Counted from the stretch's first letter, positions 4,819 to 34,842 are shown. The stretch is 64,000 bases of DNA from an uncultured Acidobacteriota bacterium (GCA_963804995.1 CAWDSK010000006.1:288001-352000); one strand, 5' to 3'. The notes: generated by a model not told the origin, from the sequence alone. Numbers and translations: made by a program.

Positions 4819-5631
4819 ATGGACAAAAGCCACAACAGGAACCGCAGCCTTTCTGAACAGGCTTACCGCTTCATTCGGGACGGAATCCTACAAGGGCAGT
4901 TACCGATGGGCACTCCAATATCACGCCGGAAGTTGGCTCTCCAATTTGGGATGAGCCTCTTACCGGTCTCGGAGGCCATTCTGCGCCTCAAACATGAAGG
5001 GCTGGTGGAGAGTCGGCCCCGCGCGGGAACGAGGGTTCGCATTCCCACGCCACAAGAAATACGAGACCTCTATGTCATGCGGGAAGCCCTGGAAAGCCAA
5101 TCCGCGCGACTTTTTGCCGAGAAGGCTAGTCCCCGCGAACGGCGTGAGGTGCGCGAAATGGCGGAGAACTTGGACGCGAAGTTCGAGCAATGCAGGAACA
5201 AAGACGCTGATCCCAAAATCATTTATCACGCCTTCGATTATCATTTGTCATTACACGTGCGAATCGCCGAATGCACAGGGAGCATTGCTCTGCATAATGC
5301 GATCAAAACAAACAATCTCTTAATCTATAATTGGATTTTGGACATCGCAGCGCAAATGCCTATCCGTATGCCAGCGCACTATCATCGGAAAGTAATCGAT
5401 GTAATCGCGGGACCCGATCCCGAAGCGGCGGACGCTGCGATGCGCCAACACGTGCGCTCCGGCCTAAAAGAGACTCTGGCTGCGGCTATCTCCATCCTTG
5501 GGCCGGGCGTCGGTCGTTTCAAGCCATCGGGAGCGTCGCATTCGGTGTCGCAGTCAAATTCAGCAGCCCAAGGGACCTGGAGGTCTAGAGCTCAGCACGC
5601 CGTGCATCTGTCCTCAGACAACAACTGGTAG
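4819..5631 (+). CDS. GntR (FCD-type) transcriptional regulator
   Basis: wHTH SLSEQAY..GMSLLPVSEAILRLKHEGLV; C-terminal ADAAMRQHV; present TAG stop comes from the antisense intron end. Confidence 0.9.
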   Translation: MDKSHNRNRSLSEQAYRFIRDGILQGQLPMGTPISRRKLALQFGMSLLPVSEAILRLKHEGLVESRPRAGTRVRIPTPQEIRDLYVMREALESQSARLFAEKASPRERREVREMAENLDAKFEQCRNKDADPKIIYHAFDYHLSLHVRIAECTGSIALHNAIKTNNLLIYNWILDIAAQMPIRMPAHYHRKVIDVIAGPDPEAADAAMRQHVRSGLKETLAAAISILGPGVGRFKPSGASHSVSQSNSAAQGTWRSRAQHAVHLSSDNNW

Positions 5632-7583
5632 GGTCGGGAACTGGCGCGGCGGCTCCGAGAAAGCTCCGAGCCCCGTTTCCAGCTCCCGCCACATCACACG
5701 TAGCGTGCGGATTTCCCGCACTACGCGTTCCTGCACACTTCACGGCAAGGGTTATGGGGCCTATCGGGTCGGGGCGGCTGCCCAGGAGGATGACTGATGG
5801 ACCACGCGGTACTCGTGGAAGAGCCCGAGCGTGCCATACAGCCACTCCTTACGCCACCGCTTCCATCCGAAGCCTGGGCGTTGTCTGGCCCTCGCCAAGT
5901 GGCACCGAATCTTCTTCTCTACCCAGTCGCGGATATACGAGAAGCACCGGCTGGAGTGCCCGACCGCAAAGTAGTTCACCCAGCCGCGCAGAATGGGATT
6001 GATCTGCTCGATCAACCCCCTCACAGGCTGAGAGCGATAGCTCCGGAAAACTAGCTTGAGCTTGCGTAGCAATGCCGTCCGCTTCTTGCCCCGCGGCGTA
6101 CGCAGCGGCATCCATCGGCCCCGCCGACTGCGGATGCGACGGAACTCAAACCCCAGAAATCCGAAACTCTCTCCTTGCTGAAGATCCACCCTCCGGCTTT
6201 TCTCCTCGTTCACCTCAACCTGCAGCTTGGCCAACTCCTCCCGTAGCCGCTTTTCCACTGCCTTGCGAAGCCAGGCCTGCCGGGGATGAGCGTTCACCAG
6301 AACCACCAGATCATCGGCGAATCTGGCATATTCGACGTTCATCCACCGCCCCTCGCGGGTGACTTCCTTCGCCTTTTCCAGCATCTTGTCCACCTCATTG
6401 AGGTACACGTTACTGAGCAAGGGCGAAATCACCCCGCCTTGCGGAACACCCTGCTTCCCCGACGCCTTCAGCAGCAGTTTGAGCAGCCCTAGGACCTCGG
6501 TGTCGTTCACTCGCCGTGCCACCTTCTCCAGTACGAGGGAATGTCGAACCGTATCGAAGTAGGAACGCAAGTCGAGATCAACGACAAAGGTCATGTGCCG
6601 CACGATTGCCTCCGAGACGCGTTGAATCGCAGCGTGGGCTGACTTCTTCGGCCGGTAGCCAAACAATCCCGGTTGGAAATCGGCCTCAAAGATCGGTTCC
6701 AGGATCAGCTTCAACGCTCCCTGGACCACTCGGTCGCGAATGCAAGGAATCGAAAGTTGGCGAACCTTTCCGCCCTCCTTCGGAATCCCTACCTTCCGCA
6801 GCCGTCGAGGTCGATATCTCCGCTGCACCAGCTCCTCGCGAAGCTGTTCGAGAAATCCCTGCAAGCCTTCAGCCTCGATTGCCTGGAACGTGACCCCATC
6901 TACTCCTGGGGCTCCCTTGTTCTCCTTAGCTAGCTGATACGCTTCCCAGAGAGTTTCTCGTTTGCAGACGTGGACATACAACCCCCAGAATCGCCAAGTC
7001 GGTTCAGCCTTCGCCTTGACGTAAAGTCTTCGCCGCAGGTCTTGCAGCTTAAAGGGCGCTTTTATCATTTCACCCCTGCCTCCCATGTTGGCCAAGACTT
7101 GCTGTGCAGCAAGGCCCCTTCGCTCCATGGGCGTTACCCCACTTCGTCGCTACTTCGAGCCTAACCGCCACCGTCTCGCCGTCAGCCGATTTCCCGTTGT
7201 CTCCGGTTATACGGCCTACCCTGCTCCACCGATCTCTCGATGGGACGAGGACGGTTTCTCCAGTTGCTTGACATGCCCTTGCCACCGTGCTGCCCCTACC
7301 ACCCCGCCGGAGTGACATGTCGTCTCGGTCAGCCCACGTCATGCCATGCTGCCTTCGCCCCGAAGGAGAGGGCTCGGCCTCCGGATCTATTTTTTTGTCG
7401 AGGCCACCTATGGGTTCACTTGCGTTACGGCCCGGTGACTCGCTCACCATCCCTTGGATGGCTTTGTCGGTCAGCTTCATCCGCTTCGTTTCCTCCACGG
7501 ATGCGACCCAAGCTACAAGGCTCCTGACTCTTGCCTTGGTGGGACTAACTCCCACTGAACATACCAGCCTTTGCTGGACACAC
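5628..7583 (-). mobile_element. Group II intron, copy A (1956 bp)
   Basis: 5' GTGTG at 7583; 3' CCCGACCCTAC at 5628; domain V-like GTGCGGGAAATCCGCAC; EBS1 TCCTTC at 7362-7367. Confidence 0.93.
5761..7128 (-). CDS. ltrA: Group II intron reverse transcriptase/maturase, no endonuclease domain (start may be downstream)
   Basis: GAPGVDG, IPCIRDRVVQ, PQGGVISPLL, RFADD, domain X LRGWVNYF; carries PGLFG variant. Confidence 0.95.
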   Translation of the reverse strand: MERRGLAAQQVLANMGGRGEMIKAPFKLQDLRRRLYVKAKAEPTWRFWGLYVHVCKRETLWEAYQLAKENKGAPGVDGVTFQAIEAEGLQGFLEQLREELVQRRYRPRRLRKVGIPKEGGKVRQLSIPCIRDRVVQGALKLILEPIFEADFQPGLFGYRPKKSAHAAIQRVSEAIVRHMTFVVDLDLRSYFDTVRHSLVLEKVARRVNDTEVLGLLKLLLKASGKQGVPQGGVISPLLSNVYLNEVDKMLEKAKEVTREGRWMNVEYARFADDLVVLVNAHPRQAWLRKAVEKRLREELAKLQVEVNEEKSRRVDLQQGESFGFLGFEFRRIRSRRGRWMPLRTPRGKKRTALLRKLKLVFRSYRSQPVRGLIEQINPILRGWVNYFAVGHSSRCFSYIRDWVEKKIRCHLARARQRPGFGWKRWRKEWLYGTLGLFHEYRVVHQSSSWAAAPTR

Positions 7584-9539
7584 GTAGGGTCGGGAACTGG
7601 CGCGGCGGCTCCGAGAAAGCTCCGAGCCCCGTTTCCAGCTCCCGCCACATCACACGTAGCGTGCGGATTTCCCGCACTACGCGTTCCTGCACACTTCACG
7701 GCAAGGGTTATGGGGCCTATCGGGTCGGGGCGGCTGCCCAGGAGGATGACTGATGGACCACGCGGTACTCGTGGAAGAGCCCGAGCGTGCCATACAGCCA
7801 CTCCTTACGCCACCGCTTCCATCCGAAGCCTGGGCGTTGTCTGGCCCTCGCCAAGTGGCACCGAATCTTCTTCTCTACCCAGTCGCGGATATACGAGAAG
7901 CACCGGCTGGAGTGCCCGACCGCAAAGTAGTTCACCCAGCCGCGCAGAATGGGATTGATCTGCTCGATCAACCCCCTCACAGGCTGAGAGCGATAGCTCC
8001 GGAAAACTAGCTTGAGCTTGCGTAGCAATGCCGTCCGCTTCTTGCCCCGCGGCGTACGCAGCGGCATCCATCGGCCCCGCCGACTGCGGATGCGACGGAA
8101 CTCAAACCCCAGAAATCCGAAACTCTCTCCTTGCTGAAGATCCACCCTCCGGCTTTTCTCCTCGTTCACCTCAACCTGCAGCTTGGCCAACTCCTCCCGT
8201 AGCCGCTTTTCCACTGCCTTGCGAAGCCAGGCCTGCCGGGGATGAGCGTTCACCAGAACCACCAGATCATCGGCGAATCTGGCATATTCGACGTTCATCC
8301 ACCGCCCCTCGCGGGTGACTTCCTTCGCCTTTTCCAGCATCTTGTCCACCTCATTGAGGTACACGTTACTGAGCAAGGGCGAAATCACCCCGCCTTGCGG
8401 AACACCCTGCTTCCCCGACGCCTTCAGCAGCAGTTTGAGCAGCCCTAGGACCTCGGTGTCGTTCACTCGCCGTGCCACCTTCTCCAGTACGAGGGAATGT
8501 CGAACCGTATCGAAGTAGGAACGCAAGTCGAGATCAACGACAAAGGTCATGTGCCGCACGATTGCCTCCGAGACGCGTTGAATCGCAGCGTGGGCTGACT
8601 TCTTCGGCCGGTAGCCAAACGATCCCGGTTGGAAATCGGCCTCAAAGATCGGTTCCAGGATCAGCTTCAACGCTCCCTGGACCACTCGGTCGCGAATGCA
8701 AGGAATCGAAAGTTGGCGAACCTTTCCGCCCTCCTTCGGAATCCCTACCTTCCGCAGCCGTCGAGGTCGATATCTCCGCTGCACCAGCTCCTCGCGAAGC
8801 TGTTCGAGAAATCCCTGCAAGCCTTCAGCCTCGATTGCCTGGAACGTGACCCCATCTACTCCTGGGGCTCCCTTGTTCTCCTTAGCTAGCTGATACGCTT
8901 CCCAGAGAGTTTCTCGTTTGCAGACGTGGACATACAACCCCCAGAATCGCCAAGTCGGTTCAGCCTTCGCCTTGACGTAAAGTCTTCGCCGCAGGTCTTG
9001 CAGCTTAAAGGGCGCTTTTATCATTTCACCCCTGCCTCCCATGTTGGCCAAGACTTGCTGTGCAGCAAGGCCCCTTCGCTCCATGGGCGTTACCCCACTT
9101 CGTCGCTACTTCGAGCCTAACCGCCACCGTCTCGCCGTCAGCCGATTTCCCGTTGTCTCCGGTTATACGGCCTACCCTGCTCCACCGATCTCTCGATGGG
9201 ACGAGGACGGTTTCTCCAGTTGCTTGACATGCCCTTGCCACCGTGCTGCCCCTACCACCCCGCCGGAGTGACATGTCGTCTCGGTCAGCCCACGTCATGC
9301 CATGCTGCCTTCGCCCCGAAGGAGAGGGCTCGGCCTCCGGATCTATTTTTTTGTCGAGGCCACCTATGGGTTCACTTGCGTTACGGCCCGGTGACTCGCT
9401 CACCATCCCTTGGATGGCTTTGTCGGTCAGCTTCATCCGCTTCGTTTCCTCCACGGATGCGACCCAAGCTACAAGGCTCCTGACTCTTGCCTTGGTGGGA
9501 CTAACTCCCACTGAACATACCAGCCTTTGCTGGACACAC
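7584..9539 (-). mobile_element. Group II intron, copy B (1956 bp), directly abutting copy A
   Basis: 5' GTGTG at 9539; 3' end at 7584; EBS1 at 9318-9323 complementary to the 5' exon GAAGGA (9540-9545). Confidence 0.93.
7717..9084 (-). CDS. ltrA: Group II intron reverse transcriptase/maturase
   Basis: Same protein as copy A except PGSFG. Confidence 0.95.
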   Translation of the reverse strand: MERRGLAAQQVLANMGGRGEMIKAPFKLQDLRRRLYVKAKAEPTWRFWGLYVHVCKRETLWEAYQLAKENKGAPGVDGVTFQAIEAEGLQGFLEQLREELVQRRYRPRRLRKVGIPKEGGKVRQLSIPCIRDRVVQGALKLILEPIFEADFQPGSFGYRPKKSAHAAIQRVSEAIVRHMTFVVDLDLRSYFDTVRHSLVLEKVARRVNDTEVLGLLKLLLKASGKQGVPQGGVISPLLSNVYLNEVDKMLEKAKEVTREGRWMNVEYARFADDLVVLVNAHPRQAWLRKAVEKRLREELAKLQVEVNEEKSRRVDLQQGESFGFLGFEFRRIRSRRGRWMPLRTPRGKKRTALLRKLKLVFRSYRSQPVRGLIEQINPILRGWVNYFAVGHSSRCFSYIRDWVEKKIRCHLARARQRPGFGWKRWRKEWLYGTLGLFHEYRVVHQSSSWAAAPTR

Positions 9540-10148
9540 TCCTTCGCCAAAACTCCATCGGCTTGATCGCCCTTGATTCTTGAGCTGTTGTGGCTACCAA
9601 AAACCTCGTTCGCATTGAATCAATTGATGTTGGCCGGCCGCCGCTGGTATCGTTCCCAATCGGGCTCAGGTCGTAAGTCGGGCCGGTGCCGACCATTGCC
9701 ACACATAACTCAACTTTCCTCGAATGATCTGCGATTTGAGTATGCGACGAGATTTCAGGGCGCCAGTCACTTTTCCGGTAAGCGACAATACGCAGGTGCC
9801 TACACGCTGGATGTGGGGCCCGACGGGGACATGCCCTCCGAAGGCGAACGATTCATTCGGGGCAGCGGTCGGGCAAGTATTGCTCGCCACTCCAATGGCT
9901 CGGCGGTCCTACAGCAAGTGGAATACGCAGGGGAAGAAGTAGCTCTGAGTTCTCGGGCTATGGGAACTCGGCTCCTACCCCTCGGTTTAGGAAACCGGCG
10001 GTCGGCTTTCTATGGCTGACGGCAACTTGCTTGGAATCCTTATGTTCCAGCCACTTTTGACACGCATAAAATAACCGTTGTAGTCACTTTTGTAGCTGGT
10101 GACTTCCGCACGTTTCTACAACCCTGGGCACCCAAGCGTTTACTAGGC

Positions 10149-10503
10149 TAGAGCGGTTTCGATTTAAGTACTTACATGCCCGCAAGAGGCGAAGAAGTTT
10201 GTGCATTCGCTTGGGGAGACCGTATTGAGCAATTCCCCGATTTCCTTCCAGAGGGCATCGATATCTCGTTTGGCGGCTTTGCGGAGCAGCGCCTTGAGTT
10301 TGGAAAAGAACCTTTCGATCGGGTTCAGGTCCGGGGAGTAGGGAGGCAGATAGAGTAGGGTGGCTCCGGCCGCGGTGATCGCTTTCTCCACTCCCGCCAC
10401 CTTGTGACTGCTGAGGTTGTCCAGAATCACGGTGTCTCCCGGTTGGAGCGTTGGGCACAGGAATTGATGCACATAAGCCAGAAACATCTCGCCGTCCATC
10501 GGC
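10149..10503 (-). pseudogene. IS630-family transposase C-terminal fragment with terminal repeat
   Basis: VILDNLSSHK and LPPYSPDLNPIE; TA-GAGCGGTTTC end at 10149; cut at 10503 by the next IS. Confidence 0.9.
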
Positions 10504-11806
10504 TGTCCCTACCAATAATCTCGTTCATCTTGAAATCATTGATTTTCTCGGGAAACGTCGTTAGGCTCCCTCGTCCATGTTTATCCCACTCCTTTCCGCA
10601 TTGGTTAGCATCCGATCTTGGTTTCGAAATCGAGCAATGCTGCAAATGGAAAACCTTGCCCTGCGCCACCAACTGACAGTTCTTAAAAGGTCTCAGCGTG
10701 GCCGGCTTCGTCTGGACTCCGCCGACCGATGGCTTTGGATTTGGCTCTCTCGCTTCTGGTCGAACTGGCGCTCGGCGTTGCTCATCGTCAAGCCCGAAAC
10801 GGTAATCGCCTGGCATCGCCAGGGATTCCGCTGGTATTGGAGATGGAAGAGTCGGCACGGCGAGCCGGGAAGGCCTACCATCGAGTTGGAGGTTCGGGAG
10901 TTGATCCGAAAGATGAGTCTGGCGAACCCGCTCTGGGGAGCACCCCGTATTCATGGGGAATTGCTCAAGCTCGGAATCCAAGTGTCACAAGCCACAGTCG
11001 CGAAGTACATGGCTCGGCAACGAAGACCGCCATCCCAGACGTGGCGTACTTTCCTTGAGAACCACGTGCAGCAGTTGGTTGCGACGGACTTCTTCGTCGT
11101 GCCGACCGTCACTTTTCGACTCCTATACGTCTTTATCGTCTTGGCGCACGATAGGAGACGCCTACTCCATTTTAACGTCACCGCCCATCCCACTTCCGAA
11201 TGGACGGCGCAACAGCTGGTTGAGGCGTTCCCTTGGGACAGCGCGCCACGCTACCTGCTCCACGATCGCGACTCGATTTATGAAGGGTCATTCCGTTAAC
11301 GAGTTCGGAGGATGGCGATTCAGGAAGTTCTGACGGCCCCCAGATCGCCTTGGCAGAATCCATACGTTGAGCGCCTAGTGGGCTCGATCCGGCACGAGTG
11401 CCTGGACCATGTTGTTGTGTTCAACGAGTCTTCACTGCGTAGCCTTCTAAATTCTTACTTCGCGTATTACCTACGTTCGCGAACACATTTGGCGTTGGCG
11501 AAGGATGCCCCGGAAGCGAGGGTTATCCAAGGGCCGGAATTCGGTGCCGTGGCAGAGATCCCCGAAGTCGGAGGACTCCATCACCGTTATGAACGGAGAG
11601 CAGCTTGAAGCGTCATTCCCCCAAGAGACAGTCTTGAGTCTCCTTCCGGTGCCAGCAGACGTTGGCGTTGGATGACAGAACCACGGATCGATTCCAGGAC
11701 CCGTCTCCTTGAGAACGATGGTGAGGATATCATGCGGTGCTGCTGGGAGGGTCACGGAGCCATGACGGATTATCTTCCTACTGCGATCGAGTTTTTGGTA
11801 TGGACA
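10504..11806 (+). mobile_element. IS481/IS3-like insertion sequence (1303 bp)
   Basis: Imperfect IRs TGTCCCTACCAATAATCTCG and TGTCCATACCAAAAACTCG (reverse complement); no target duplication. Confidence 0.8.
10577..11608 (+). pseudogene. Integrase-core (rve) DDE transposase with in-frame TAA at 11297
   Basis: ENLALRHQL, WGAPRIHGELLKLG, ATDFF, LHDRDS, PWQNPYVER, GGLHHRY. Confidence 0.9.
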
Positions 11807-12461
11807 GGAGGCGGCGCGAGTGCAGGAGTGGCGAGCCCTGGACGCCATCTACTCGCTGGGAGAGTTCCACTTGCAGCTCTTCGGGTGGGATCAGGAAAGG
11901 CGCTTCGTGGTGGTGCGAGAGCAACTGCGGGAGACGAAGCGTTCGCCGGGCCGGAAATTATTGGAAGTTCCTGGTTACACCTTTCGAGTTTTCGTCACCA
12001 ACCTGCCCGATCCGCCAGAAGAAGTCTGGCGGGACTATAACCAGCGGGCCTGCGTGGAGCAACGCATCGAGGAGTTGAAGTCGGACTTGGGCGCAGACGA
12101 TTTCTGCCTGCGGGAATTCTTCGCCACCGAGGCGGTGTTCCTGAGCATTCTGATGCGGTTCAACCTGCTGGGGGAGTTCCAACGCGCCAGTGGGATGACC
12201 GGCTACCGACAGCCGGCCAGCTTGCGGGTGCAGGTGTTCCTGTGCGGAGCGATCCTGGGCCGTGCGGGCCACCGACCGGTGCTCCATCTGTCGGCCGCCT
12301 GGGGAGGCTTGGGAAAACGCAACTTCCTGTTCGACAACCTCTTGGCGTATGAAATCCCAACTTCGCGCAAGTTGGAATTGCAACCACACGGGGCGGGGTG
12401 AAGCACGGCCTCCAAACCCTAGCCCGGAGGCTAAGAACTTCGTTCAACTTACGAATTCGGG
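11807..12461 (+). pseudogene. IS1380-family transposase C-terminal fragment with right end
   Basis: FVTNL and YNQRACVEQRIEELK; ends GAATTCGGG followed by TTAA. Confidence 0.8.
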
Positions 12462-12964: not shown

Positions 12965-13867
12965 TCACTCCCCGGCAAGCTCCCTCCGCAGGTTTTCCCA
13001 CAACGCCTGCTCCCGGTGATAAGGATCATTGGCCAGCACCTGTTCTCTGGAGCTCAGGTCGGCGAGAAACCGGAAGCCGCTGGCGCAATCGGCGCAAATT
13101 CTCTCGCGGTCGATCCTCGCGTCACGGCGCACCAAGTCCCGTAAGTCGTCCCAGTCAAATTCCCTGCCCTCCTCAAATTTCCTCATGAGGCGCGCGGGAT
13201 CGAAGGTATCGCCCGCCTGCCAAAGCTTCAGCACCACAAGCCGGCGAATAAGCGGATAATCGATCGGCCGTGTCGCGTACATCCCGAGGTCGTAAATGTC
13301 GCGCGCCTTGTTGCGCTGATAACAGGCGCGGATTTTTTCAGCAAGAATTTCGGGCAGCGCCAGGCAGGTGATCTCGGCGGGGGCGAAAGGCAAGAGCCTG
13401 AAATAAGTCTGTTCGTATTGTGGCCGCCGCTCGGGCGGGAGCGTCGGCGTCTCGCGACGGCTGATCTGCAGTTTTATTTGGCTGTCGCCTGCCACGTTCC
13501 AATCATGCGAATAGGTCGGATTCACACCCCATGACAGACCGTCCTGGGTCTCGTAATAACTGTTATCAGGAATGTGGAACCTGATCCCGTGAAATTCCTG
13601 CTCGAAGGCCCCCATCATGGCGAGGATGACATCCTCGTGATCGTGCTCCTCAAGCGCGGTGAAATCCAGATCAGTGGAGAACCGTGCATGGCTTCCGATG
13701 AACATCTTCCGAAGACAGGTGCCACCCTTGAAGGCCAACCTGTCCAGAATGCGGTGCTCCGAGAGAAGCTGAAGCAAAAAGGTCAGGACGATTTCCTTTT
13801 CAGCGATCATCATGTCGCGAAGACCGGACTGGGTGGAGTAACGCCGCACCTCGGGTTGCGTAAGCAT
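12965..13867 (-). CDS. abiEii: AbiEii-family nucleotidyltransferase toxin (type IV TA)
   Basis: FKGGTCL, RFSTDLDF, EILAEK, KARDIYDL. Confidence 0.9.
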   Translation of the reverse strand: MLTQPEVRRYSTQSGLRDMMIAEKEIVLTFLLQLLSEHRILDRLAFKGGTCLRKMFIGSHARFSTDLDFTALEEHDHEDVILAMMGAFEQEFHGIRFHIPDNSYYETQDGLSWGVNPTYSHDWNVAGDSQIKLQISRRETPTLPPERRPQYEQTYFRLLPFAPAEITCLALPEILAEKIRACYQRNKARDIYDLGMYATRPIDYPLIRRLVVLKLWQAGDTFDPARLMRKFEEGREFDWDDLRDLVRRDARIDRERICADCASGFRFLADLSSREQVLANDPYHREQALWENLRRELAGE

Positions 13868-13869
13868 GC

Positions 13870-14733
13870 TTACCCGTCCTTCTTGAGCGCTCTTCCCCGG
13901 CCTAGCCCGGCGCTTTCATGCAGTTCTTCTCCCGACACGTTCACGAACAGATGCCATGTCTTGTCATAGCCGATGGCGCCGGGAACTTTGTGTGCGGGAT
14001 TCGATCCCATCCATGTCCGGGGGCCGCGGGCGGCGAGGTCAAGCAGCCTTTCGCGGACGGCGGTGGGCATGTCCGCCTTGACGTGATCCATCACCCAGCC
14101 GAATCTACGGACCAGCGCAATCGAATCGATCCGTTGGAGATAGTCTGCCGCCTTTGGCCAATCAAAACGGCGACTGGCCGCCGCCAGAATGGAGGCGGCC
14201 TCTCCCACGCCACCGGCCAGCGTCGGGCGGTCGATGCAGTCGATGGCCGTCTTTTCTCGATCGGACATCATGACTTTGTAGCCGAGGACGTCGACAGGAG
14301 CGAATCCGAAAAATTTCGCAGGCTTGGGATTGACGATCCGCACCCGTCCCTCCCCGACCTGCCGACCCCGCAGGCGCGTCGGCGTGACGAGTACGATCAA
14401 CCGGCGATGCTGTGTCGTTAGCCCGTAGTGCTCGGCGGCGCTGCCGTATCCGATGTAGTAGGGATCGGCGATGCGGCTCGCTAGCGCGAGGAGATTGCTT
14501 TCGCCCAGGGCAGCGGGCCCCTGGTCGGGCGGGATGACGAGGTACTCTCCCCAGCTCGCCCGCTCGAGCCACCCTTTCCGGCGCAGCGATTCAATTACCT
14601 TGTCAGCCGCCTTGGCGCTACCACCCAGCAGTTGGACAATCTCCGGCCGGCCCACTTCGCGCCGTTCTTGTTCGGCGAGGGCAAGCACAACTCGGCTCTC
14701 CTGTGGCGATAAGGTGCGGACGGTGAAATCCAT
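13870..14733 (-). CDS. abiEi: AbiEi-family antitoxin/transcriptional regulator
   Basis: wHTH (LRRKGWLER), YYIGYGSAAEHYGLTTQ, SDREKTAIDC; 2 bp upstream of the toxin gene. Confidence 0.88.
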   Translation of the reverse strand: MDFTVRTLSPQESRVVLALAEQERREVGRPEIVQLLGGSAKAADKVIESLRRKGWLERASWGEYLVIPPDQGPAALGESNLLALASRIADPYYIGYGSAAEHYGLTTQHRRLIVLVTPTRLRGRQVGEGRVRIVNPKPAKFFGFAPVDVLGYKVMMSDREKTAIDCIDRPTLAGGVGEAASILAAASRRFDWPKAADYLQRIDSIALVRRFGWVMDHVKADMPTAVRERLLDLAARGPRTWMGSNPAHKVPGAIGYDKTWHLFVNVSGEELHESAGLGRGRALKKDG

Positions 14734-14749
14734 AATATTCTTACTCACA

Positions 14750-14772
14750 AAACCCCCTGTTTTAGGGGGTTT
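14750..14772. promoter_or_regulatory. Inverted repeat upstream of abiEi, candidate operator
   Basis: AAACCCCCT-N5-AGGGGGTTT, 17 bp before the ATG. Confidence 0.5.
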
Positions 14773-14861
14773 CGATGAACAAAATATCATCTCAGGCCTT
14801 GCATGTCAATCATGTGCAGATATTTCCCCTCAAAGGGGGCTGGCCTTAACTGATTATAAGC

Positions 14862-15212: not shown

Positions 15213-16152
15213 GGCCGTTATTATCTCATGGGAAGACCCGATGCTTGGGGACTGGCATCACAGACGGCATTGCCCACTCGGCAAACCATACAGCAGGATC
15301 GCAAGTACGAGTTCAACAGCTTATCGTACTGATCGACAACCTCGACCGCCCGGGGCCGGTCGCACACATGCCCGCAAATGGTTACTGGGACAGTCTGAAT
15401 TCAGATGGTTTAAGCCTGGCAGCAAACGTGACGCTCTGCGACAATAAGGTTGGAGGCGGTATGAATGGTCGTTAAATACCCTCAGAGCCATGAATATTTC
15501 GAACTCGCTGAGCCAGTGAAGCCGAGCACGGCGAAAAAAGTCAGAAAGAAGGTTGTTGTGCGCTTTGCGGTGAGGGAAACCACGTCGTATGGCCAACAGA
15601 CTTAAATCCGTTTTCACGAAAATGTCAGAAGGTTTGACCACTGGCTAGTTGGAGGTAGAAATAGACCAGCCCCTGTTTCCGCCGGGGCCTCTTAGAACTT
15701 TTGGGCGCAATCGATGGGTAAAGGAGAATTGCGTCCGATGCGAGCCAAAAACTCTGCAGCGACAGAAGTCAAGGCAGGATGCTCGCTTCGTTCCGACACC
15801 TCTGCAACTAGCAATGGCTTCCAACCATCAAAGTCCCTCAAGAACACCTTTCGCGCCGCCTGTGCTTGCCCTCACTGTAATCAGAGTGATCGCCGTAAGT
15901 TTTGCGATATCAAGAAGGTGGAACTTGGTAGAGCGCAGCCCAGAAGGGCTTGGCGTCGACCGATTGGCGAACTTGTGTTTCGCCAAAATCTCATCCGCGC
16001 AGGAACTGGCGCGAGTCGCTTTGTGCCTCGGATTGAAAAGAGAACCTGGACTCGGTTAAGAGTTGCTTTGAGGAGCGCGAAGGTTCTATTTAGACGAGGA
16101 CCTGGGCAGATGCGACGTTCTTATCTAAGGATGGGCGAAAAGTTGGCCCGGA

Positions 16153-16398
16153 TCAGGCAGCCCGATCGTAACGATGATGCAGCCCGCCAAGTCGATCCTG
16201 AGATAGGATGCGCCCCGAGGCTTTGGAGCGAATTCTGTGGTCGGGGGTTCCCTTCCTCAACCCAAGGTGCGTGCGGTCTTCGTGGTAGTAGTGAACGTAT
16301 TCAGAGAGCATACGTTTCAAATGGCGTTCATTCACCGCAATGACGTGATCCAGTAGATCTTGTCGGCAGCTTTCAACCCAACGCTCCCCTACGCCATT
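16153..16398 (-). pseudogene. C-terminal part of split rve transposase
   Basis: NGVGERWVESCRQDLLDHVI..GGLHHRYDRAA. Confidence 0.9.
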
Positions 16399-16691
16399 GG
16401 ATCAGGTCGTCAACTACACACCATAGAGACTATTCAAAACGACGTTTCCGAGTAACTCACCCTTACCATCCACTGTTCCAACGTGAATTCGAATGGGTGG
16501 ACTACCGCCAGAACTGGGGGGAGGACCGAGTGTATTTCTACGACGAAGGAGGCCAGTTGACCTCGCTACCGGCGCGGTGGACGAGTGTCGTGGGGGAGGA
16601 CCCATTCGTGGTCATAGGGGGAGGCCGCTCGTATTTTCGCGTTGAGGACCTGATTGAATTGGTGCGTTTGGTGGAGGGTTTACGGTCCTGA
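16399..16691 (+). CDS. DUF5372 (Y4bD-like) protein, 5' end missing in the integrated state
   Basis: FRVTHPYHPL..RQNWGEDRVYF..SLPARWT; frame is open from the element end with no ATG/GTG/TTG before 16497. Confidence 0.75.
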
Positions 16692-16705
16692 AGCCCCGGA
16701 AGGTC

Positions 16706-16747
16706 TGTAAAGGGAATTACGCCGTTTGTGTTAAAGGGATTATGTCG
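16706..16747 (+). repeat. Two imperfect 19-bp direct repeats, 23-bp period
   Basis: TGTAAAGGGAATTACGCCG / TGTTAAAGGGATTATGTCG. Confidence 0.6.
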
Positions 16748-16841
16748 GAGCTTGAGCCGAAGTCCAGAGTTTTCGGTGGGTGTGTGAGTGCAATATCCGC
16801 TTATTGTGCAACACAAATTCGGGTCGGAGGATAGAAAAGGC

Positions 16842-16870
16842 TTGACAGGGAGCAAGAGAATGTATATAAT
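16842..16870 (+). promoter_or_regulatory. Consensus sigma70 promoter of the recombinase operon
   Basis: TTGACA-17 nt-TATAAT, upstream of GGAGGAG and ATG 16912. Confidence 0.85.
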
Positions 16871-16911
16871 TAACATTACACTCGTTTGCCGGATTTGCTC
16901 CGGAGGAGCCC

Positions 16912-17379
16912 ATGTCCCCTTCCTCACGCCACGATGCCAAGCGCCATATCCTGCGCTCCCAAGGTACCTTGAATCCCCGCCCGCAGGAGGTGGCCCACGC
17001 CCTGTTCCAGGACAGCGACTTCTTCGATCCCCGGGACTTGCTGCAGGTCAAGTACGAGATGCTGCGCCAAGTGAGGGTCGAAAACCAAGCGGTGAGCCAA
17101 GCGGCGGAGGCTTTTGGTTTCTCCAGACCCTCCTTCTACCTCGCCCAGGCGGGCTTCGTAGCCAGGGGACTCGCAGGATTGATTCCCCAGAAACGGGGAC
17201 CTCGGCACGCCCACAAGCTCACGGCCGAGGTAATGGAGTTCGTCCGGCAGGCCCGAGCTGCCGAACCCTCCTTGCGGAGCGAGGAACTGGCGGCCCGGGT
17301 GAAGAAAGCCTTCCGTCTACGGGTCCATCCTCGCAGCTTGGAGCGCCGGCTTCGGCAGCAGCAAAAAAAACGACGTTGA
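16912..17379 (+). CDS. Helix-turn-helix protein
   Basis: FFDPRDLLQVKYEMLR, AAEAFGFSRPSFY, GLIPQKRGPR. Confidence 0.85.
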   Translation: MSPSSRHDAKRHILRSQGTLNPRPQEVAHALFQDSDFFDPRDLLQVKYEMLRQVRVENQAVSQAAEAFGFSRPSFYLAQAGFVARGLAGLIPQKRGPRHAHKLTAEVMEFVRQARAAEPSLRSEELAARVKKAFRLRVHPRSLERRLRQQQKKRR

Positions 17380-17681
17380 GCGACCCTCCCGTTGCTCCCC
17401 TGATGGCCCAGGAGGGGATCGTAAACCAATATGAGGAACTCCGGCGACAAGTGCGGGGTGAGTTAGGCGGCAGGCGCGGAGCCTTGGGCCTGGCGCTGTT
17501 TATTCGCCAGGGGATGAAAGGCTGGATGGAAGCCTGGTCCCACTGCCTGCCGGGTGGGATTCCGATGAAACCCCAGAATCCGTCCGGCCCTGAGGAGAGG
17601 GTTCCTCTCGATCTGCACACGGAAGTGGTTACGATTCTGGCGAGCATGGTACTTCACAGTCGGCCGGAGGTGAGAGGATGA
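17376..17681 (+). CDS. Small hypothetical protein of the element
   Basis: TTGA and ATGA overlaps with neighbours; YEELR..GLALFIRQGMKGW. Confidence 0.7.
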   Translation: MSDPPVAPLMAQEGIVNQYEELRRQVRGELGGRRGALGLALFIRQGMKGWMEAWSHCLPGGIPMKPQNPSGPEERVPLDLHTEVVTILASMVLHSRPEVRG

Positions 17682-19771
17682 GAACCGAAATGCCGCAGAA
17701 GGTTCAAGCCCACCATTTGAAACGCGACGCCTACCTGTATATCCGGCAGTCCACGCTTCGGCAGGTCTTTGAGAATACCGAGAGCACCCAGCGCCAGTAC
17801 GCGTTACGCCAACAGGCCGTGGCCCTGGGCTGGCCTTTGGAACGGATCATCGTGATCGACAACGATCAAGGCCAGTCGGGAGCTTCGGCGGTAGACCGAG
17901 AGGGATTTCAAAGGTTGGTGAGTGAAGTGGGGATGGGGCGAGCAGGGATCGTTCTGGGTCTCGAGGTGTCGCGCCTGGCGCGCAACTCCACGGACTGGCA
18001 TCGACTGCTGGAGATCTGCGCGCTCACCGACACGCTCATTTTGGATGAAGATGGCATCTACGACCCGGCGCACTTTAATGACCGCCTGCTGTTGGGGCTG
18101 AAAGGCACGATGAGCGAGGCGGAACTGCACGTGCTGCGAGCCCGGTTGCGAGGCGGAATCCTCAGCAAAGCTCGGCGCGGTGAGTTGGAGATCCCACCTC
18201 CGGTCGGCTTGGTCTATAACGGCTCGGGGCAACTCGTTCTCGATCCGGACCAGCAGGTGCAACAGGGCCTTCGACTCTTGTTTGAAACCTTCCGTCGTAC
18301 GGGATCCGCCCTGGCCACGGTGAAGGCCTTTCGCCAGCAGGGGCTGCTGTTTCCCCGCCGCCTGCGGGCGGGGCCCCACCAAGGAGAGTTGGTATGGGTG
18401 GAACTTGTTCACAGCCATGTCCTGCGCGTTTTGCACAATCCTCGGTATGCCGGGGCCTACGTCTTTGGCCGGAGTCAGACGCGCAAGAAGCTGGAGGGTG
18501 GCGTGACGGTGAAGTGGTTGCCTCGCGAGGAGTGGGACACTTGCCTTCCTGGGGCCCATGCGGGTTACCTCTCCTGGGAAGAATATGAGAGCAATCAGCG
18601 GCGGTTACGGGAATCCGCGCAAGCTTGGGGTCCCGACCGTCGTCAAAGCCCTCCGCGGGAAGGTCCAGCGCTTCTGCAGGGATTAGTGATCTGTGGCCGC
18701 TGTGGGAATCGGATGACCGTGCGTTATCATGTTCACCGGTCACGCCTGGCCCCCCATTATGTGTGTCAGCGGTACGGTATCGAACACGCTCAAACCATCT
18801 GCCAGACGGTTCCTGGAGCGGGTATCGACCAGGCCATCGGGGAACTGCTGATCGAAGTGGTCACTCCGTTAGCCCTGGAGGTGGCGCTGAGCGTGCAGCA
18901 AGAACTTCAGTCTCGTTGGGAAGAAGCGGATCGGTTGCGCCAAACCCAAGTCGAGCGCGCCCGGTATGAGGCGGAGCTGGCCGAGCGGCGCTACTTGCGT
19001 TGCGATCCCGACAACCGGCTCGTGGCGGATTCGCTCGAGGCCGACTGGAACCACAAGCTGCGTGCTCTGGGAGAGGCTCAGCAAGAGTATCAACGTCAAC
19101 GTCAGGTCGACCGTGGGTTGTGTCGGGAAGAGGAACGCGCTCAGATTTTTGCCCTGGCCACAGACTTCCCTCGGCTGTGGCGCGATGCGAAAACGCCACA
19201 TCGAGAACGGAAGCGTATGGTCCGCCTTCTATTGGAAGACGTCACGTTGACCCGCAACCATGAGATCACGCTTCAGATCCGCTTCAAGGGGGGAGCTACA
19301 AAGACCCTGCATTTGCCCATCCCCCTCAATGCCTGGAAACAGCGCACCACCAAGCCGGAGGTGGTGGCGGAGATCGACCGGCTCCTGGATCAACGTACCG
19401 ATCGGCAGATCGCTAGCCTGCTGAATGAACGCGGCTGGCTCTCGGGCGAAGGCAGGCCCTTCAGCCCTCACATCGTTGCGCGCATACGGCGTAACTATGC
19501 CTTGAAGAGCGGTTACACTCGCCTACGCGGAGCCGGCCTGTTGACCCTGCAAGAGATGGCTAAGCTGCTCGGCATCTCCACCGGGTGGGTGAAAGTCTGG
19601 CGGGACCATGGTCTGTTAAGAGCTCAAGCCTACAACGAGAAAAACGAGTGTTTATATGAACACCCCGGCGATGATCCGCCGCGCAAGATGCAAGGGACGA
19701 AGCTCGCTGCCAGGCAGCGATTCTTCGAGGACCCCTCGAATCATACCAATGAGGTGCAGTATGAAGCATAA
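17678..19771 (+). CDS. Large serine recombinase (697 aa)
   Basis: YIRQS catalytic motif, VSRLAR, LHNPRYAG, CGRCG zinc ribbon, coiled coil, C-terminal HTH. Confidence 0.95.
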   Translation: MRTEMPQKVQAHHLKRDAYLYIRQSTLRQVFENTESTQRQYALRQQAVALGWPLERIIVIDNDQGQSGASAVDREGFQRLVSEVGMGRAGIVLGLEVSRLARNSTDWHRLLEICALTDTLILDEDGIYDPAHFNDRLLLGLKGTMSEAELHVLRARLRGGILSKARRGELEIPPPVGLVYNGSGQLVLDPDQQVQQGLRLLFETFRRTGSALATVKAFRQQGLLFPRRLRAGPHQGELVWVELVHSHVLRVLHNPRYAGAYVFGRSQTRKKLEGGVTVKWLPREEWDTCLPGAHAGYLSWEEYESNQRRLRESAQAWGPDRRQSPPREGPALLQGLVICGRCGNRMTVRYHVHRSRLAPHYVCQRYGIEHAQTICQTVPGAGIDQAIGELLIEVVTPLALEVALSVQQELQSRWEEADRLRQTQVERARYEAELAERRYLRCDPDNRLVADSLEADWNHKLRALGEAQQEYQRQRQVDRGLCREEERAQIFALATDFPRLWRDAKTPHRERKRMVRLLLEDVTLTRNHEITLQIRFKGGATKTLHLPIPLNAWKQRTTKPEVVAEIDRLLDQRTDRQIASLLNERGWLSGEGRPFSPHIVARIRRNYALKSGYTRLRGAGLLTLQEMAKLLGISTGWVKVWRDHGLLRAQAYNEKNECLYEHPGDDPPRKMQGTKLAARQRFFEDPSNHTNEVQYEA

Positions 19772-19776
19772 GCCTT

Positions 19777-20562
19777 CTGCCAGGGACTCTCGAAGGAGGT
19801 CCGCACCGGGCTCATCTTCAGGGATCGAACGGCCACGGGGACCTCCAACCCGTATTTCGCATCCCGGTCGAAGATGAGAAACCGAGGAGCCATCTCAAAC
19901 GGGAACGCTTCTCGCAGCTGTTGGACGACCCACAGGCTAGTCGGGTGCTTGGTGACGTTGAAGTGCAGGATACGTCGCCGGCCATGGCTGATGACGAAGA
20001 AGCCATAGAGCACGCCAAAGGTTAATGTTGGCACGGTGAAGAAATTCATGGCCGCAATCGCTTCCCTGTGGTTTCGGAGGAAGGCGAGCCAACGTTGGGC
20101 TGGCTCGGGATCTCTCGGCGCCCGTTTCATCCAACGCGAGATCGTTCTCTCGCAAAGATCAAAACCGAGCATAAGAAGCTCGCCGTGGATGCGCGGCGCT
20201 CCCCAGGTTGGATTCTCAACAACCATCCGGAAGATCAACTCTCGGACTCCCTTCGGTGTCGGCTTCCTCCCAACCCGCGTCCTGACTTTCGAGATCAGAT
20301 TCCAGTACAAGCGAAAACCAGCTCGGTGCCACCGAATTACGGTTTCAGGTGTGACGACGATCAGGGCTTGTTCCCATCCTGACCAGTATCGACGAACGGC
20401 AACCCAGAACAATTTGTCGAACGGGCTCAGGCACGGGCGTCGACGCCGCCGCTTCAATACGGCGAGTTGTTGGCGTAACGCAAGATTCTCAAGGAGGAGA
20501 CTTCGTCGCATGCGAAAGAAGCGAATCAGCGTTCCGACGCACAGGCCGATGAATTGAAGCAT
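19777..20562 (-). pseudogene. N-terminal part of split rve transposase
   Basis: LENLALRQQL, WGAPRIHGEL, FDRD, SPWQ; first catalytic Asp appears as Asn (AMNFF). Confidence 0.9.
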
Positions 20563-20826
20563 GGCCAGGAGTTATAGCAGAAAGCTGGTGGGACGGCGGC
20601 AGTTATGTCATTGATTTCAGAGTCGGCCAGGGTTTTGGCGAACGACAGGGGTTGGGTTCGAAACAAGCGTGATTACGCGGCTGTAAAAGCATCTCTCCGA
20701 GTTGTTCGCGGCCACCCTGAAGCAGTGTCGATCAGACGTTCCCTTGAGATAAGGGAGCGACGGCATGTCGTTCCTGCAAAGGCGTAGCAGGATAGGCAGA
20801 GGCAAGTTTTCGGCACTACATTCGCT

Positions 20827-32827: not shown

Positions 32828-34842
32828 CCTGCCTTTCGCACTTCCACCCGCTACCGGGCTGATTTTGGCAGCTTGCGGTGCACAAGGTCTTTGCCTTCAA
32901 TGGGCGCGGGTTGAAGAGTGCTTGTAGGCCCGACCTACCCTCTTTTCTGGGGCGCGAAGGTCTGGCATTCTGGGGCGTGCACCTGAAGATTCATCGACGC
33001 AAAAAGGACGGCAAGGAACATCGTTATTTCAGCATCGTCGAGAGTCGGCGCGTGTCGCGCTCGAAGGTCGTGCATCGGACGGTGCTGTATCTGGGCGAAA
33101 TCAACGACAGCCAACAATCCGCGTGGCGCAAGACGCTGGAGGTTTTTGACGAGGACCGTCGCGTCCTCGCGTCCCTGAGCCTCTTCCCGGAGGACCGCGA
33201 ACTTCCTGCGGATGCTGTGGACGGCGTACAAGTGAAGTTGAGTGAAATGCGCGTTGAGCGGCCGCGCACCTTCGGTGGCTGTTGGTTGGGCTGCGAGCTG
33301 TGGCGCCAGTTGAAGCTGGACGAGTTCTGGCAGGCGAGGTTGCCGGAAGGGCGCGAGGGAGTTCCGTGGGAGAAGGTGCTACGGCTGCTGGTGGTGAACC
33401 GGTTGATCGAGCCGGGCAGCGAATTCCGTGTGCATCGGCACTGGTTCGATCAGACCGCCATGGCCGAGTTGCTGGCAGTGAACTTCGCGGTGGCCGAGAA
33501 GGACCGGCTCTATCGTTGTCTGGATCGAATACTGGCGCACAAGGCGGAGTTGTTCCAGCACCTGCGGCTGCGGTGGCAAGACCTCTTTGCGGCGCGCTTT
33601 GATCTGCTCCTCTACGATCTCACCAGCACCTATGTGGAAGGAGAGGCGGAAGCGATTCCCAAAGCCCGCCACGGTTACAGCCGGGACGGGCGGTTCGACT
33701 GTCGGCAGGTGGTGATCGCCCTGGTGCTGACGCCGGAAGGTTTCCCGCTGGCCTACGAAGTGATGGAGGGGAATACTTCCGACCGGAACAGCTTGCGCGG
33801 TTTTCTGGACAAGATCGAGAGCGTGTACGGCAAGGCACGGCGGGTGTGGATGATGGATCGGGGAGTTCCCAGTGAAGAACTGCTGGCGGAGATGCGCACC
33901 CCGGGGCGGGAGATGTTTTACCTGGTGGGGACGCCACGGGGCAAGATCCGGCAGTACGAAGCGAAGTGGACGGAACTGCCGTGGCGGAAGGTGCGCGAGT
34001 CGGTAGAGGTGAAACTGTTCGCGGAGGAAGGCGAGTTGTATGTGCTGGCGAAGAGCGCAGGCCGCCAGGCGAAAGAGATGGCCATCCGTCGACGCAAGCT
34101 GGCACGGCTGTTGTGGAGGCTGCGGGCCTTGCGGCGCGTGTGTCCGACGCGTGATGCGTTGCTGATGAAGATCGGAGCAGCCAAGAGTGAAGCCGGACGG
34201 GCCTTCGGTTTCGTGAAGATCAGCGTGCCCAAGGCCCAGGAAGAAGTGACTCGCCAGACCTTCCAGTTCCGGCTCGAGCGCAGCAAGTTGGAGGAAGCGG
34301 AGCGGCGCGATGGACATTATCTGTTGCGCACCAATCTGACGGGGGAAAATCCCGAGGTGTTGTGGGACCGCTACATGCAACTGGCGCAGATCGAAGCGGC
34401 CTTTAAGTGTTTGAAGAGTGAGCTGGGAATTCGGCCGATTTATCATCAAATAGAACATCGCGTCGAGGCCCACATCCTCATTGCCTTTCTGGCGTACGGC
34501 TTGTGGGTGACGCTGAAACAGCGTCTGCAGGCCCACGCTCCGGGCCTGACGCCGAAAGCGGTGCTGGAGAAGCTGGCGGGCATGCAGATGCTCGATGTGT
34601 CTTTCCCGACCACGGATGGGCGCCGATTAGTGATGCCCCGCTACACCGAGCCGACACCCGAACAAAAGCTCCTGTTGCACGAACTGCAGCTCGTGCTCCC
34701 CACTCAGCCACCGCCCAGGATCACGGTCCAGCCGGAAATCTTTCCTGCTGGAATGCTGCGTTTGTAGGCCAGACCTTGGCAATGCCTGTACTGAAAAGAA
34801 GCGAGTTAACCCAACTCAACACCCTGAAGTGCGAAAGTTCGG
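32828..34842 (+). mobile_element. IS1634-family insertion sequence, apparently intact
   Basis: IRs CCTGCCTTTCGCACTT / CCGAACTTTCGCACTT; CTAG (GCTAGC) on both flanks. Confidence 0.92.
32977..34767 (+). CDS. IS1634-family DDE transposase
   Basis: YDLTSTYVEG, GYSRD, MDRG, IEAAFKCLKSELGIRPIYHQ. Confidence 0.95.
   Translation: MHLKIHRRKKDGKEHRYFSIVESRRVSRSKVVHRTVLYLGEINDSQQSAWRKTLEVFDEDRRVLASLSLFPEDRELPADAVDGVQVKLSEMRVERPRTFGGCWLGCELWRQLKLDEFWQARLPEGREGVPWEKVLRLLVVNRLIEPGSEFRVHRHWFDQTAMAELLAVNFAVAEKDRLYRCLDRILAHKAELFQHLRLRWQDLFAARFDLLLYDLTSTYVEGEAEAIPKARHGYSRDGRFDCRQVVIALVLTPEGFPLAYEVMEGNTSDRNSLRGFLDKIESVYGKARRVWMMDRGVPSEELLAEMRTPGREMFYLVGTPRGKIRQYEAKWTELPWRKVRESVEVKLFAEEGELYVLAKSAGRQAKEMAIRRRKLARLLWRLRALRRVCPTRDALLMKIGAAKSEAGRAFGFVKISVPKAQEEVTRQTFQFRLERSKLEEAERRDGHYLLRTNLTGENPEVLWDRYMQLAQIEAAFKCLKSELGIRPIYHQIEHRVEAHILIAFLAYGLWVTLKQRLQAHAPGLTPKAVLEKLAGMQMLDVSFPTTDGRRLVMPRYTEPTPEQKLLLHELQLVLPTQPPPRITVQPEIFPAGMLRL

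What the first reader, a model, noticed from the sequence alone, without database searches (positions are those of the whole stretch)
5620..9630. Intron homing site is the terminal inverted repeat of an IS family
Seen: removing the introns gives TG|TCCTTCGCCAAAACTCCATC, matching the IS ends at 15974 (TGTGTTTCGCCAAAATCTCATC) and 20647 (TGTCGTTCGCCAAAACC). EBS1 TCCTTC sits in a GCCC/GGGC stem-loop and pairs with IR positions 3-8; a CAAAA tract could be EBS2. The unoccupied IS ends in the window mismatch EBS1, and another orphan IR-like end lies at 9589. Established: group II introns often target mobile DNA, including attC sites and IS genes. Inference: this lineage specialises on IS termini, which would disable the end it occupies.
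Basis: partly seen in the sequence, partly recalled or inferred. Interest (0 to 1): 0.7.

Follow-up and report, generated by a model that had tools for sequence, protein, structure and literature searches.

The report
Intron homing into insertion-sequence tips
Two back-to-back copies of a self-splicing mobile intron sit two bases inside the end-repeat of a common jumping gene, and many of its relatives land at the same spot with matching changes in their guide sequence; this strategy is already known from one rhizobial intron, but this intron group and target appear to be new.

Summary
Two head-to-tail 1,956-nt group II introns (5628-7583, 7584-9539, minus strand; endonuclease-less, FADD motif, g2/class F variety) split the terminal inverted repeat of an rve_3 (IS3/IS481-like) element between positions 2 and 3. 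The target matches 26 nt of an intact element's left end in a related genome. Among 160 homologous loci, a clade (SH-aLRT 98) has the transposase in end geometry at 20 of 58 sites, against 0 of 55 outside. EBS1 covaries with its target (22 variants; 6.0 of 7 pairs against 2.95 shuffled). Corrections: EBS1 is 7 nt, and EBS2 is the A-run, not CAAAA. Specialisation is leaky: 2 of 5 sites in this genome are in host genes, and some matching ends are empty. Disabling of the end is untested. Sister lineages mostly hit domain V of other introns. Precedent: RmInt2 homes into ISRm17 repeats and forms tandems. Unchecked scan notes report similar homing into IS66, Tn3 and IS1380 ends on other DNA. Verdict: new variant of a known kind.

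The parts
7584..9539 (-). Group II intron, copy next to the 5' exon (1,956 nt)
   Evidence: Rfam group-II-D1D4-4 at 9376-9513, 125.9 bits
5628..7583 (-). Second head-to-tail copy; one private change (IEP S155L by my reading of the codon)
7717..9084 (-). Intron-encoded RT/maturase, 455 aa from the first ATG, FADD motif, no endonuclease domain
   Evidence: Pfam RVT_1 + GIIM; TIGR04416 368 bits, cut-off 300; sequence
5761..7128 (-). RT/maturase of the second copy
9317..9323 (-). EBS1 UCCUUCG in the GCCC/GGGC stem-loop (second copy: 7361-7367)
   Evidence: mutual information with exon -1..-7; the four stem pairs are kept in 54, 54, 53 and 54 of 54 variants; coordinates
9347..9351 (-). EBS2 AAAAA, pairs with exon -9..-13, 4 of 5 here (second copy: 7391-7395)
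9255..9255 (-). EBS3 G, pairs with C at +1 (second copy: 7299)
   Evidence: G-C in 46 of 51 clade sites; top partner of +1 across all homologs
7652..7685 (-). Domain V with CGC triad and 5-nt loop (second copy: 5696-5729)
   Evidence: triad read by eye
5626..5627 (+). Terminal TG of the IS left end, cut off from the rest of the IR; this is the 3' exon CA
9540..9563 (+). Rest of the IS left IR (5' exon; IBS1 and IBS2 on the minus strand); orphan end with no transposase behind it
   Evidence: with the TG it is identical over 26 nt to the left end of intact element L179; best score of 50 clade sites on the IR profile
9589..9632 (+). Second orphan left end of the same IS family
10504..11806 (+). 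Unoccupied rve-type IS; transposase 10577-11608 with one internal TAA
15974..20647 (-). Unoccupied rve-type IS whose transposase is split by a serine-recombinase element (about 16399-19776)
4819..5631 (+). GntR-family gene; its stop codon now lies in the intron's last bases; its domains end well before the insertion

Best explanation
This is a mobile, endonuclease-less group II intron of the g2 (class F in the broad sense) variety, from a clade whose main homing site is the tip of the terminal inverted repeats, left or right, of a widespread rve_3 IS family. Shown by sequence comparison: EBS1 (7 nt) pairs with IR positions 3-9, EBS2 with the conserved T-run (positions 11-15), and EBS3 with position 2, so the intron lands two bases inside the terminus and reads outward; EBS1 has been retuned many times to IR variants while this register is kept. 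Inferred from RmInt1/RmInt2: the RNP reverse-splices into single-stranded DNA at the replication fork, and two opposed targets per IS give one on the preferred strand. Inferred: the terminal dinucleotide is moved 2-4 kb from the transposase-binding part of the IR and replaced by the intron's GT, so the end probably cannot be cleaved normally. The intron also lands at look-alike sites in host genes. The tandem arose by a second insertion at the old 5' junction or by recombination with a circular copy; which one is open.
For: Window target identical over 26 nt to an intact element's left end. Transposase at left- or right-end distance and orientation for 20 of 58 non-redundant clade sites against 0 of 55 outside; 17 of 44 against 0 of 44 with at least 300 nt of flank. 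IR profile from 16 intron-free ends of other genomes: 24 of 50 clade sites at p<1e-3 in the +2 register, at most 1 of 50 in each of eight other registers, 0 of 50 outside. EBS1/IBS1: 6.03 of 7 Watson-Crick pairs against 2.95 shuffled, 37 unique pairs, 22 EBS1 variants, 0 of 5000 shuffles; EBS2: 3.55 of 5 against 2.60. Clade support 98 in two trees, with members from Acidobacteriota, Gemmatimonadota and Gammaproteobacteria. Six copies at least 99.8% alike in this genome show recent mobility. IS ends make up 3 of 5 occupied sites but only 1 that I could identify of 37 unoccupied sites with perfect EBS1+EBS3 and at least 3 of 5 EBS2 pairs.
Against: 24 of 58 clade sites are not shown to be IS ends. 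Some lie in ORFs: IS1380 transposase (L083), the rve transposase itself (L127), an intron RT gene (L123), a PAS-domain gene and a HigB-like gene in this genome. Four high profile scorers are such ORF mimics, so the profile over-calls. One of the three 'IS-end' sites in this genome (C1) has the IR but no detectable transposase. Of 27 intron-free ends beside transposases here, one pairs 6 of 6 with EBS1 and one has the same IBS1/IBS2 as an occupied end. Minimum-energy folding does not open the EBS1 loop. Some metagenome flanks are chimeric (L082, L084) and related sites are not independent. Nothing tests splicing, homing or loss of transposition.
Confidence: 0.85

Rival explanations
1. No specialisation: a relaxed intron that inserts at any T-run plus EBS1 match, and IS ends are seen often only because insertions there are harmless and survive.
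For: 2 of 5 sites in this genome are in host genes; about 40% of clade sites are not shown to be IS ends; subclades have moved to other targets (L010/L020/L024, L022, L083, L127).
Against: 22 EBS1 variants each match a variant of one IS family's IR in one register; 281 perfect EBS1+EBS3 sites in this genome are empty, many in a REP-like repeat; sister lineages show 0 of 55.
Confidence: 0.1
2. The occupied end still works, and the intron hitch-hikes: the IS moves with the intron inside its tip, so the repeated context comes from transposition and not from repeated homing.
For: L012 and L013 show the same IS right end and intron with different outer flanks beyond +2; several occupied elements have full-length transposase matches (L012, L013, L016, L104).
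Against: Both left and right ends and many different IS variants are occupied by one intron within single genomes (L011-L015; this genome), which needs repeated homing. The outer tip keeps only 2 IS bases next to intron sequence with no IR likeness.
Confidence: 0.1
3. The tandem itself is an assembly artefact; a single intron sits at this site.
For: EBS3 is G and cannot pair with the G that starts the resident intron. The only other head-to-tail junctions found in the 160 loci (L135, L152) are outside the clade, have U at EBS3 and lie at contig ends. No raw reads were available.
Against: The copies differ at one base that none of the other four copies in the genome carries; the contig is 2.17 Mb; RmInt2 forms real tandems (PMC4615759). 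The homing-site conclusion does not depend on the tandem.
Confidence: 0.2

Closest known systems
[quoted passage not shown]
   Same: Endonuclease-less IIB-type intron; uses IS inverted repeats as target, two per element; relaxed EBS2; forms head-to-tail copies.
   Different: RmInt2 is class D, one intron in one strain, with U at EBS3 explaining its tandems. Here: g2/F variety, an rve_3 IS family, a multi-phylum clade with 22 EBS1 variants, and G at EBS3. I did not see the paper's Fig. S1, so RmInt2's position within the repeat is not compared.
B.th.I3 on pBMB67 and the g2 variety of former class F (Toro and Martinez-Abarca 2013, PMC3552965, parts 1-3 of 4 and Table S2 rows read)
   Same: FADD in RT5; no En domain; about 1.97-kb intron; 49% IEP identity, the closest named intron that I could identify in the plasmid collection.
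   Different: B.th.I3 is listed in a transposase gene, not an IS tip; it is a long branch outside this group.
Group IIE/IIF ribozymes (Nagy et al. 2013, PMC3753933, passages)
   Same: 5-nt loop in domain V; small IIB-like ribozyme with EBS1, EBS2.
   Different: Their targets were not the subject in the passages read; EBS2 was dispensable for splicing there, while here it covaries with the DNA target.
Introns that home into other retroelements (Methanosarcina twintrons; YADD-targeting introns; PMC4424553 and PMC2504315, passages)
   Same: A parasite of another mobile element that uses its conserved motif; the sister lineages here hit the 3' end of domain V of other introns (25 of 54 by pattern, about 11 more by eye).
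   Different: The window's clade targets a DNA transposon end, not an RT gene or ribozyme.

Membership tests
Group II intron retroelement | GUGYG...AY ends, domains I-VI, RT/maturase ORF in domain IV | tested here: met
   (Rfam matched domain I only; domain V/VI were folded and read by eye)
Group II intron retroelement | EBS1-3 pair with the exons | tested here: met
   covariation
Group II intron retroelement | Self-splicing and retrohoming activity | not testable with these tools
   six near-identical copies at five sites imply recent mobility
g2 variety (class F in the broad sense) | FADD in place of YADD in RT5 | tested here: met
   151 of 164 homologs with the motif have FADD; definition
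g2 variety (class F in the broad sense) | No D/En domain | tested here: met
   Pfam shows RVT_1 and GIIM only
g2 variety (class F in the broad sense) | Groups with g2 references in an RT tree that holds all classes | tested here: inconclusive
   only B.th.I3 was available as a named reference (49% identity)
Class D (RmInt1/RmInt2) | Close IEP kinship to class D introns | tested here: inconclusive
   no direct comparison with RmInt2; no Sinorhizobium record among the 118 plasmid hits at E<=1e-60 though 75 appear at 1e-30; FADD motif and 455 aa against about 415-420 aa listed for class D argue against
IS3 family (target element) | NCBIfam NF033516 cut-off 160 | tested here: not met
   72.8 bits
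IS481 family (target element) | NCBIfam NF033577 cut-off 224 | tested here: not met
   70.9 bits
IS481 family (target element) | TGT-ended inverted repeats around one rve DDE transposase (feature recalled) | tested here: met
   terminal pairs recovered without a motif in 10 of 16 full-length elements; rve_3 clusters in the atlas; a subfamily ends in CGT
IS481 family (target element) | Target-site duplication (feature recalled) | tested here: inconclusive
   by eye none of 5 nt in the elements; one 3-nt match; many are rearranged

The most novel reading that the evidence does not exclude
The clade is a dedicated, long-running antagonist of an unclassified but abundant IS family: its protein and EBS2 read the conserved core of the IR while EBS1 is repeatedly retuned, and the high variability of IR positions 3-9 partly reflects escape from the intron, an arms race at the transposon's cleavage site. 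The same IS family is also hit by a site-specific serine-recombinase element at one transposase codon, and the intron's sister lineages attack domain V of other introns.
Probability: 0.15. Interest if true: 0.75.

Novelty: new variant of a known kind. Interest (0 to 1): 0.5.

Why it matters
It extends IR homing from a single rhizobial intron to a whole clade in another intron class and gives a natural library of guide-target pairs (22 EBS1 variants at one register), which defines the targeting rules of an untested g2/F intron. It makes a standing idea directly testable: that group II introns limit the spread of insertion sequences, here by hitting the cleavage site itself. It also marks out the ends of an abundant rve_3 IS family that falls below the IS3 and IS481 model cut-offs. 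The core strategy is published, so a specialist would find the scale informative more than surprising.

Tried and rejected
Minimum-energy folding of the 5' 500 nt (z -1.79) and of the EBS1 hairpin did not show EBS1 as an open loop; covariation was used. Rfam found no domain V match even by E-value. A first loose regex for IR-like sites (labels) gave false positives (L030 group, L055, L073) and was replaced by transposase geometry and a profile. My first tandem pattern missed GCAUG starts; corrected. The idea that domain-V targeting is ancestral was dropped: with B.th.I3 as outgroup the two groups are sisters and the direction is unresolved (no AU test run). Class E, my first guess, was dropped for g2. 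Replication-strand bias: 4 of 5 sites have the intron on the G-rich strand, but skews are 0.001-0.03, inconclusive. Public runs were contigs only, none holding more than 0.34 of the words, so they could not test the tandem or expression. A wobble-tolerant pairing score picks 249 genome sites at 12 or more of 13 and does not explain site choice. Paper searches (open-licence library only) gave no report of a g2/F intron at rve/IS481-like ends; most hits were seen as listings only. Fig. S1 of PMC4615759 was not seen and may bear on how alike the RmInt2 position is.

Full report
Observation. The window holds two exact head-to-tail group II introns on the minus strand, 5628-7583 and 7584-9539, each 1,956 nt, with one differing base. 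Each has a 455-aa RT/maturase without an endonuclease domain and a domain I match to Rfam group-II-D1D4-4. The empty site is TG|TCCTTCGCCAAAACTCC. On the intron strand the 5' exon is the IS interior and the 3' exon begins with the terminal CA.

The target is an IS end. The family encodes a ~345-aa rve_3 transposase that scores below the IS3 and IS481 cut-offs. It was found in 15 of 41 genomes searched, this one included. A motif-free search for inverted repeats recovered terminal pairs, mostly TGT-ended, in 10 of 16 full-length intron-free elements. Identical ends at different places in this genome differ right outside TGT, which fixes the terminus. The window target is identical over 26 nt to the left end of intact element L179. 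It is an orphan end, cut short by a second orphan left end at 9589. Two further, unoccupied elements lie at 10504-11806 and 15974-20647.

This genome. There are six full copies at five sites: the window site, a left end directly before a transposase (C5), an IR without detectable transposase (C1), and two look-alike sites inside host genes, a PAS-domain gene and a HigB-like gene, both in sense. Of 27 intron-free ends beside transposases, one pairs 6 of 6 with the 6-nt EBS1 and four pair 5 of 6, one of them with the same binding sites as an occupied end. 281 sites with perfect EBS1 and EBS3 pairing are empty; 37 of these also have at least 3 of 5 EBS2 pairs, and I could identify one as an IS end. 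So base-pairing is needed but does not fully explain site choice; protein recognition of distal IR bases is an inference.

Homologs. Counting this genome's five sites, 113 non-redundant sites had a readable 5' junction; the rest were cut by contig ends or were duplicates. An IEP tree gives a clade of 54 rows with SH-aLRT 98 that holds the window intron (98 again with B.th.I3 as outgroup). With a profile of 35 rve transposases, 20 of 58 clade sites have the transposase at left-end (8) or right-end (12) geometry, against 0 of 55 outside. A profile from 16 intron-free ends of eight elements in other genomes (chosen by eye) scores 24 of 50 clade sites at p<1e-3 with the terminus at +2, at most 1 of 50 in each other register, and 0 of 50 outside. 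Four of the 24 are ORF mimics. My union of the two tests, mimics removed, is 34 of 58. Some pairs are probably the same site (L004/L108, L088/L090) and two flanks are chimeric (L082, L084), so the count of independent events is lower.

Recognition rules. Unsupervised mutual information pairs exon -1..-7 with intron nt 217-223, exon -9..-12 with nt 189-192 (-13 with 193 as second-ranked partner), and +1 with nt 285. In the clade EBS1 makes 6.03 of 7 Watson-Crick pairs against 2.95 in shuffles (37 unique pairs, 22 EBS1 sequences, 0 of 5000), and EBS2 3.55 of 5 against 2.60. EBS3 is G opposite C in 46 of 51. The four stem pairs around EBS1 hold in 54, 54, 53 and 54 of 54 variants. Shuffles ignore kinship, but all four Watson-Crick pair types, or three of them, occur at EBS1 positions 2-6. 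EBS1 thus follows the variable part of the IR, and EBS2 the conserved T-run. A subfamily of the IS ending in CGT is hit in the same register.

Sister lineages. Outside the clade, 25 of 54 sites match the 3' end of domain V of another group II intron by pattern, about 11 more by eye, as do two plasmid copies (L191, L193). Which target is older is unresolved.

Mechanism. Shown: target identity, register and pairing. Inferred from RmInt1/RmInt2 (PMC4615759, passages): reverse splicing at replication forks and the benefit of two opposed targets. Inferred: the occupied end keeps 18 of its first 20 bases in place but its terminal CA is replaced by the intron's GT, which should block normal cleavage by a DDE transposase (general knowledge, not tested). 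The tandem is not explained by the RmInt2 rule, since EBS3 is G; re-homing with a mismatch, recombination with a circular copy, or an assembly fault remain open.

Class and precedent. The FADD motif, lack of En and 49% identity to B.th.I3 point to the g2 variety of class F in the broad sense; the 5-nt domain V loop fits IIE/IIF. RmInt2 already shows IR homing and tandems. I learned of that paper's relevance from earlier scan notes, which also report IR-homing introns for IS66, Tn3 and IS1380 on other DNA; I checked the paper, not those notes. Eight paper searches found no account of this intron group or target. Verdict: real, well supported, a new variant of a known kind; interest 0.5.

Noticed in passing
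window about 16399-19776 (recombinase 17678-19771); G000 C6:764600-767900, C6:882500-885850, C1:136230-139560: A 3.4-kb large-serine-recombinase element sits in four different rve-IS copies at the same transposase codon (SPWQ|N), with AA at both junctions: a second site-specific parasite of the same IS family.
   Followed up: partly
L027-L080, L129-L158, L191, L193: Sister introns insert at the 3' end of domain V of diverse other group II introns, with EBS1 near AACCGU or UUCCGU.
   Followed up: partly
rve-IS ends in G000 and L161-L190: Elements show no clear target-site duplication and often have CC just outside the terminal TGT; ends pile up next to each other (window 9540/9589; L007).
   Followed up: no
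L127, L128, L136; L083, L085, L156; L123: Clade members that target the inside of the rve transposase gene, an IR-like site in an IS1380 transposase gene, and RT domain 7 of another intron.
   Followed up: partly
G000 C4:160357-162312 and C5:1086362-1088317: Copies of this intron lie in sense inside a HigB-like toxin gene and a PAS-domain gene; the latter appears in an earlier scan note.
   Followed up: partly
G000, e.g. C2:24273, C5:31969, C6:1266626: A REP-like repeat carries a perfect IBS1+IBS3 for this intron but the eight copies listed are empty.
   Followed up: no
L135, L152: Head-to-tail junctions of related introns that start GCAUG and have U at EBS3, both at contig ends.
   Followed up: partly
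L030, L032-L035, L039, L133-L147; L056-L058, L063: Two alphaproteobacterial subclades sit repeatedly in other, unidentified repeated sequences.
   Followed up: no
G000, 38 places: A second, 31%-identical intron family is present in about 38 copies; earlier notes call it REP-homing.
   Followed up: no
window 21960-63345; 12965-14790; 10084-10515; 11820-12401; 32878-34767: A type VI secretion cluster with several genes in pieces, an AbiEi/AbiEii pair, IS630-like (by eye) and IS1380-like remnants and an IS1634 transposase.
   Followed up: no
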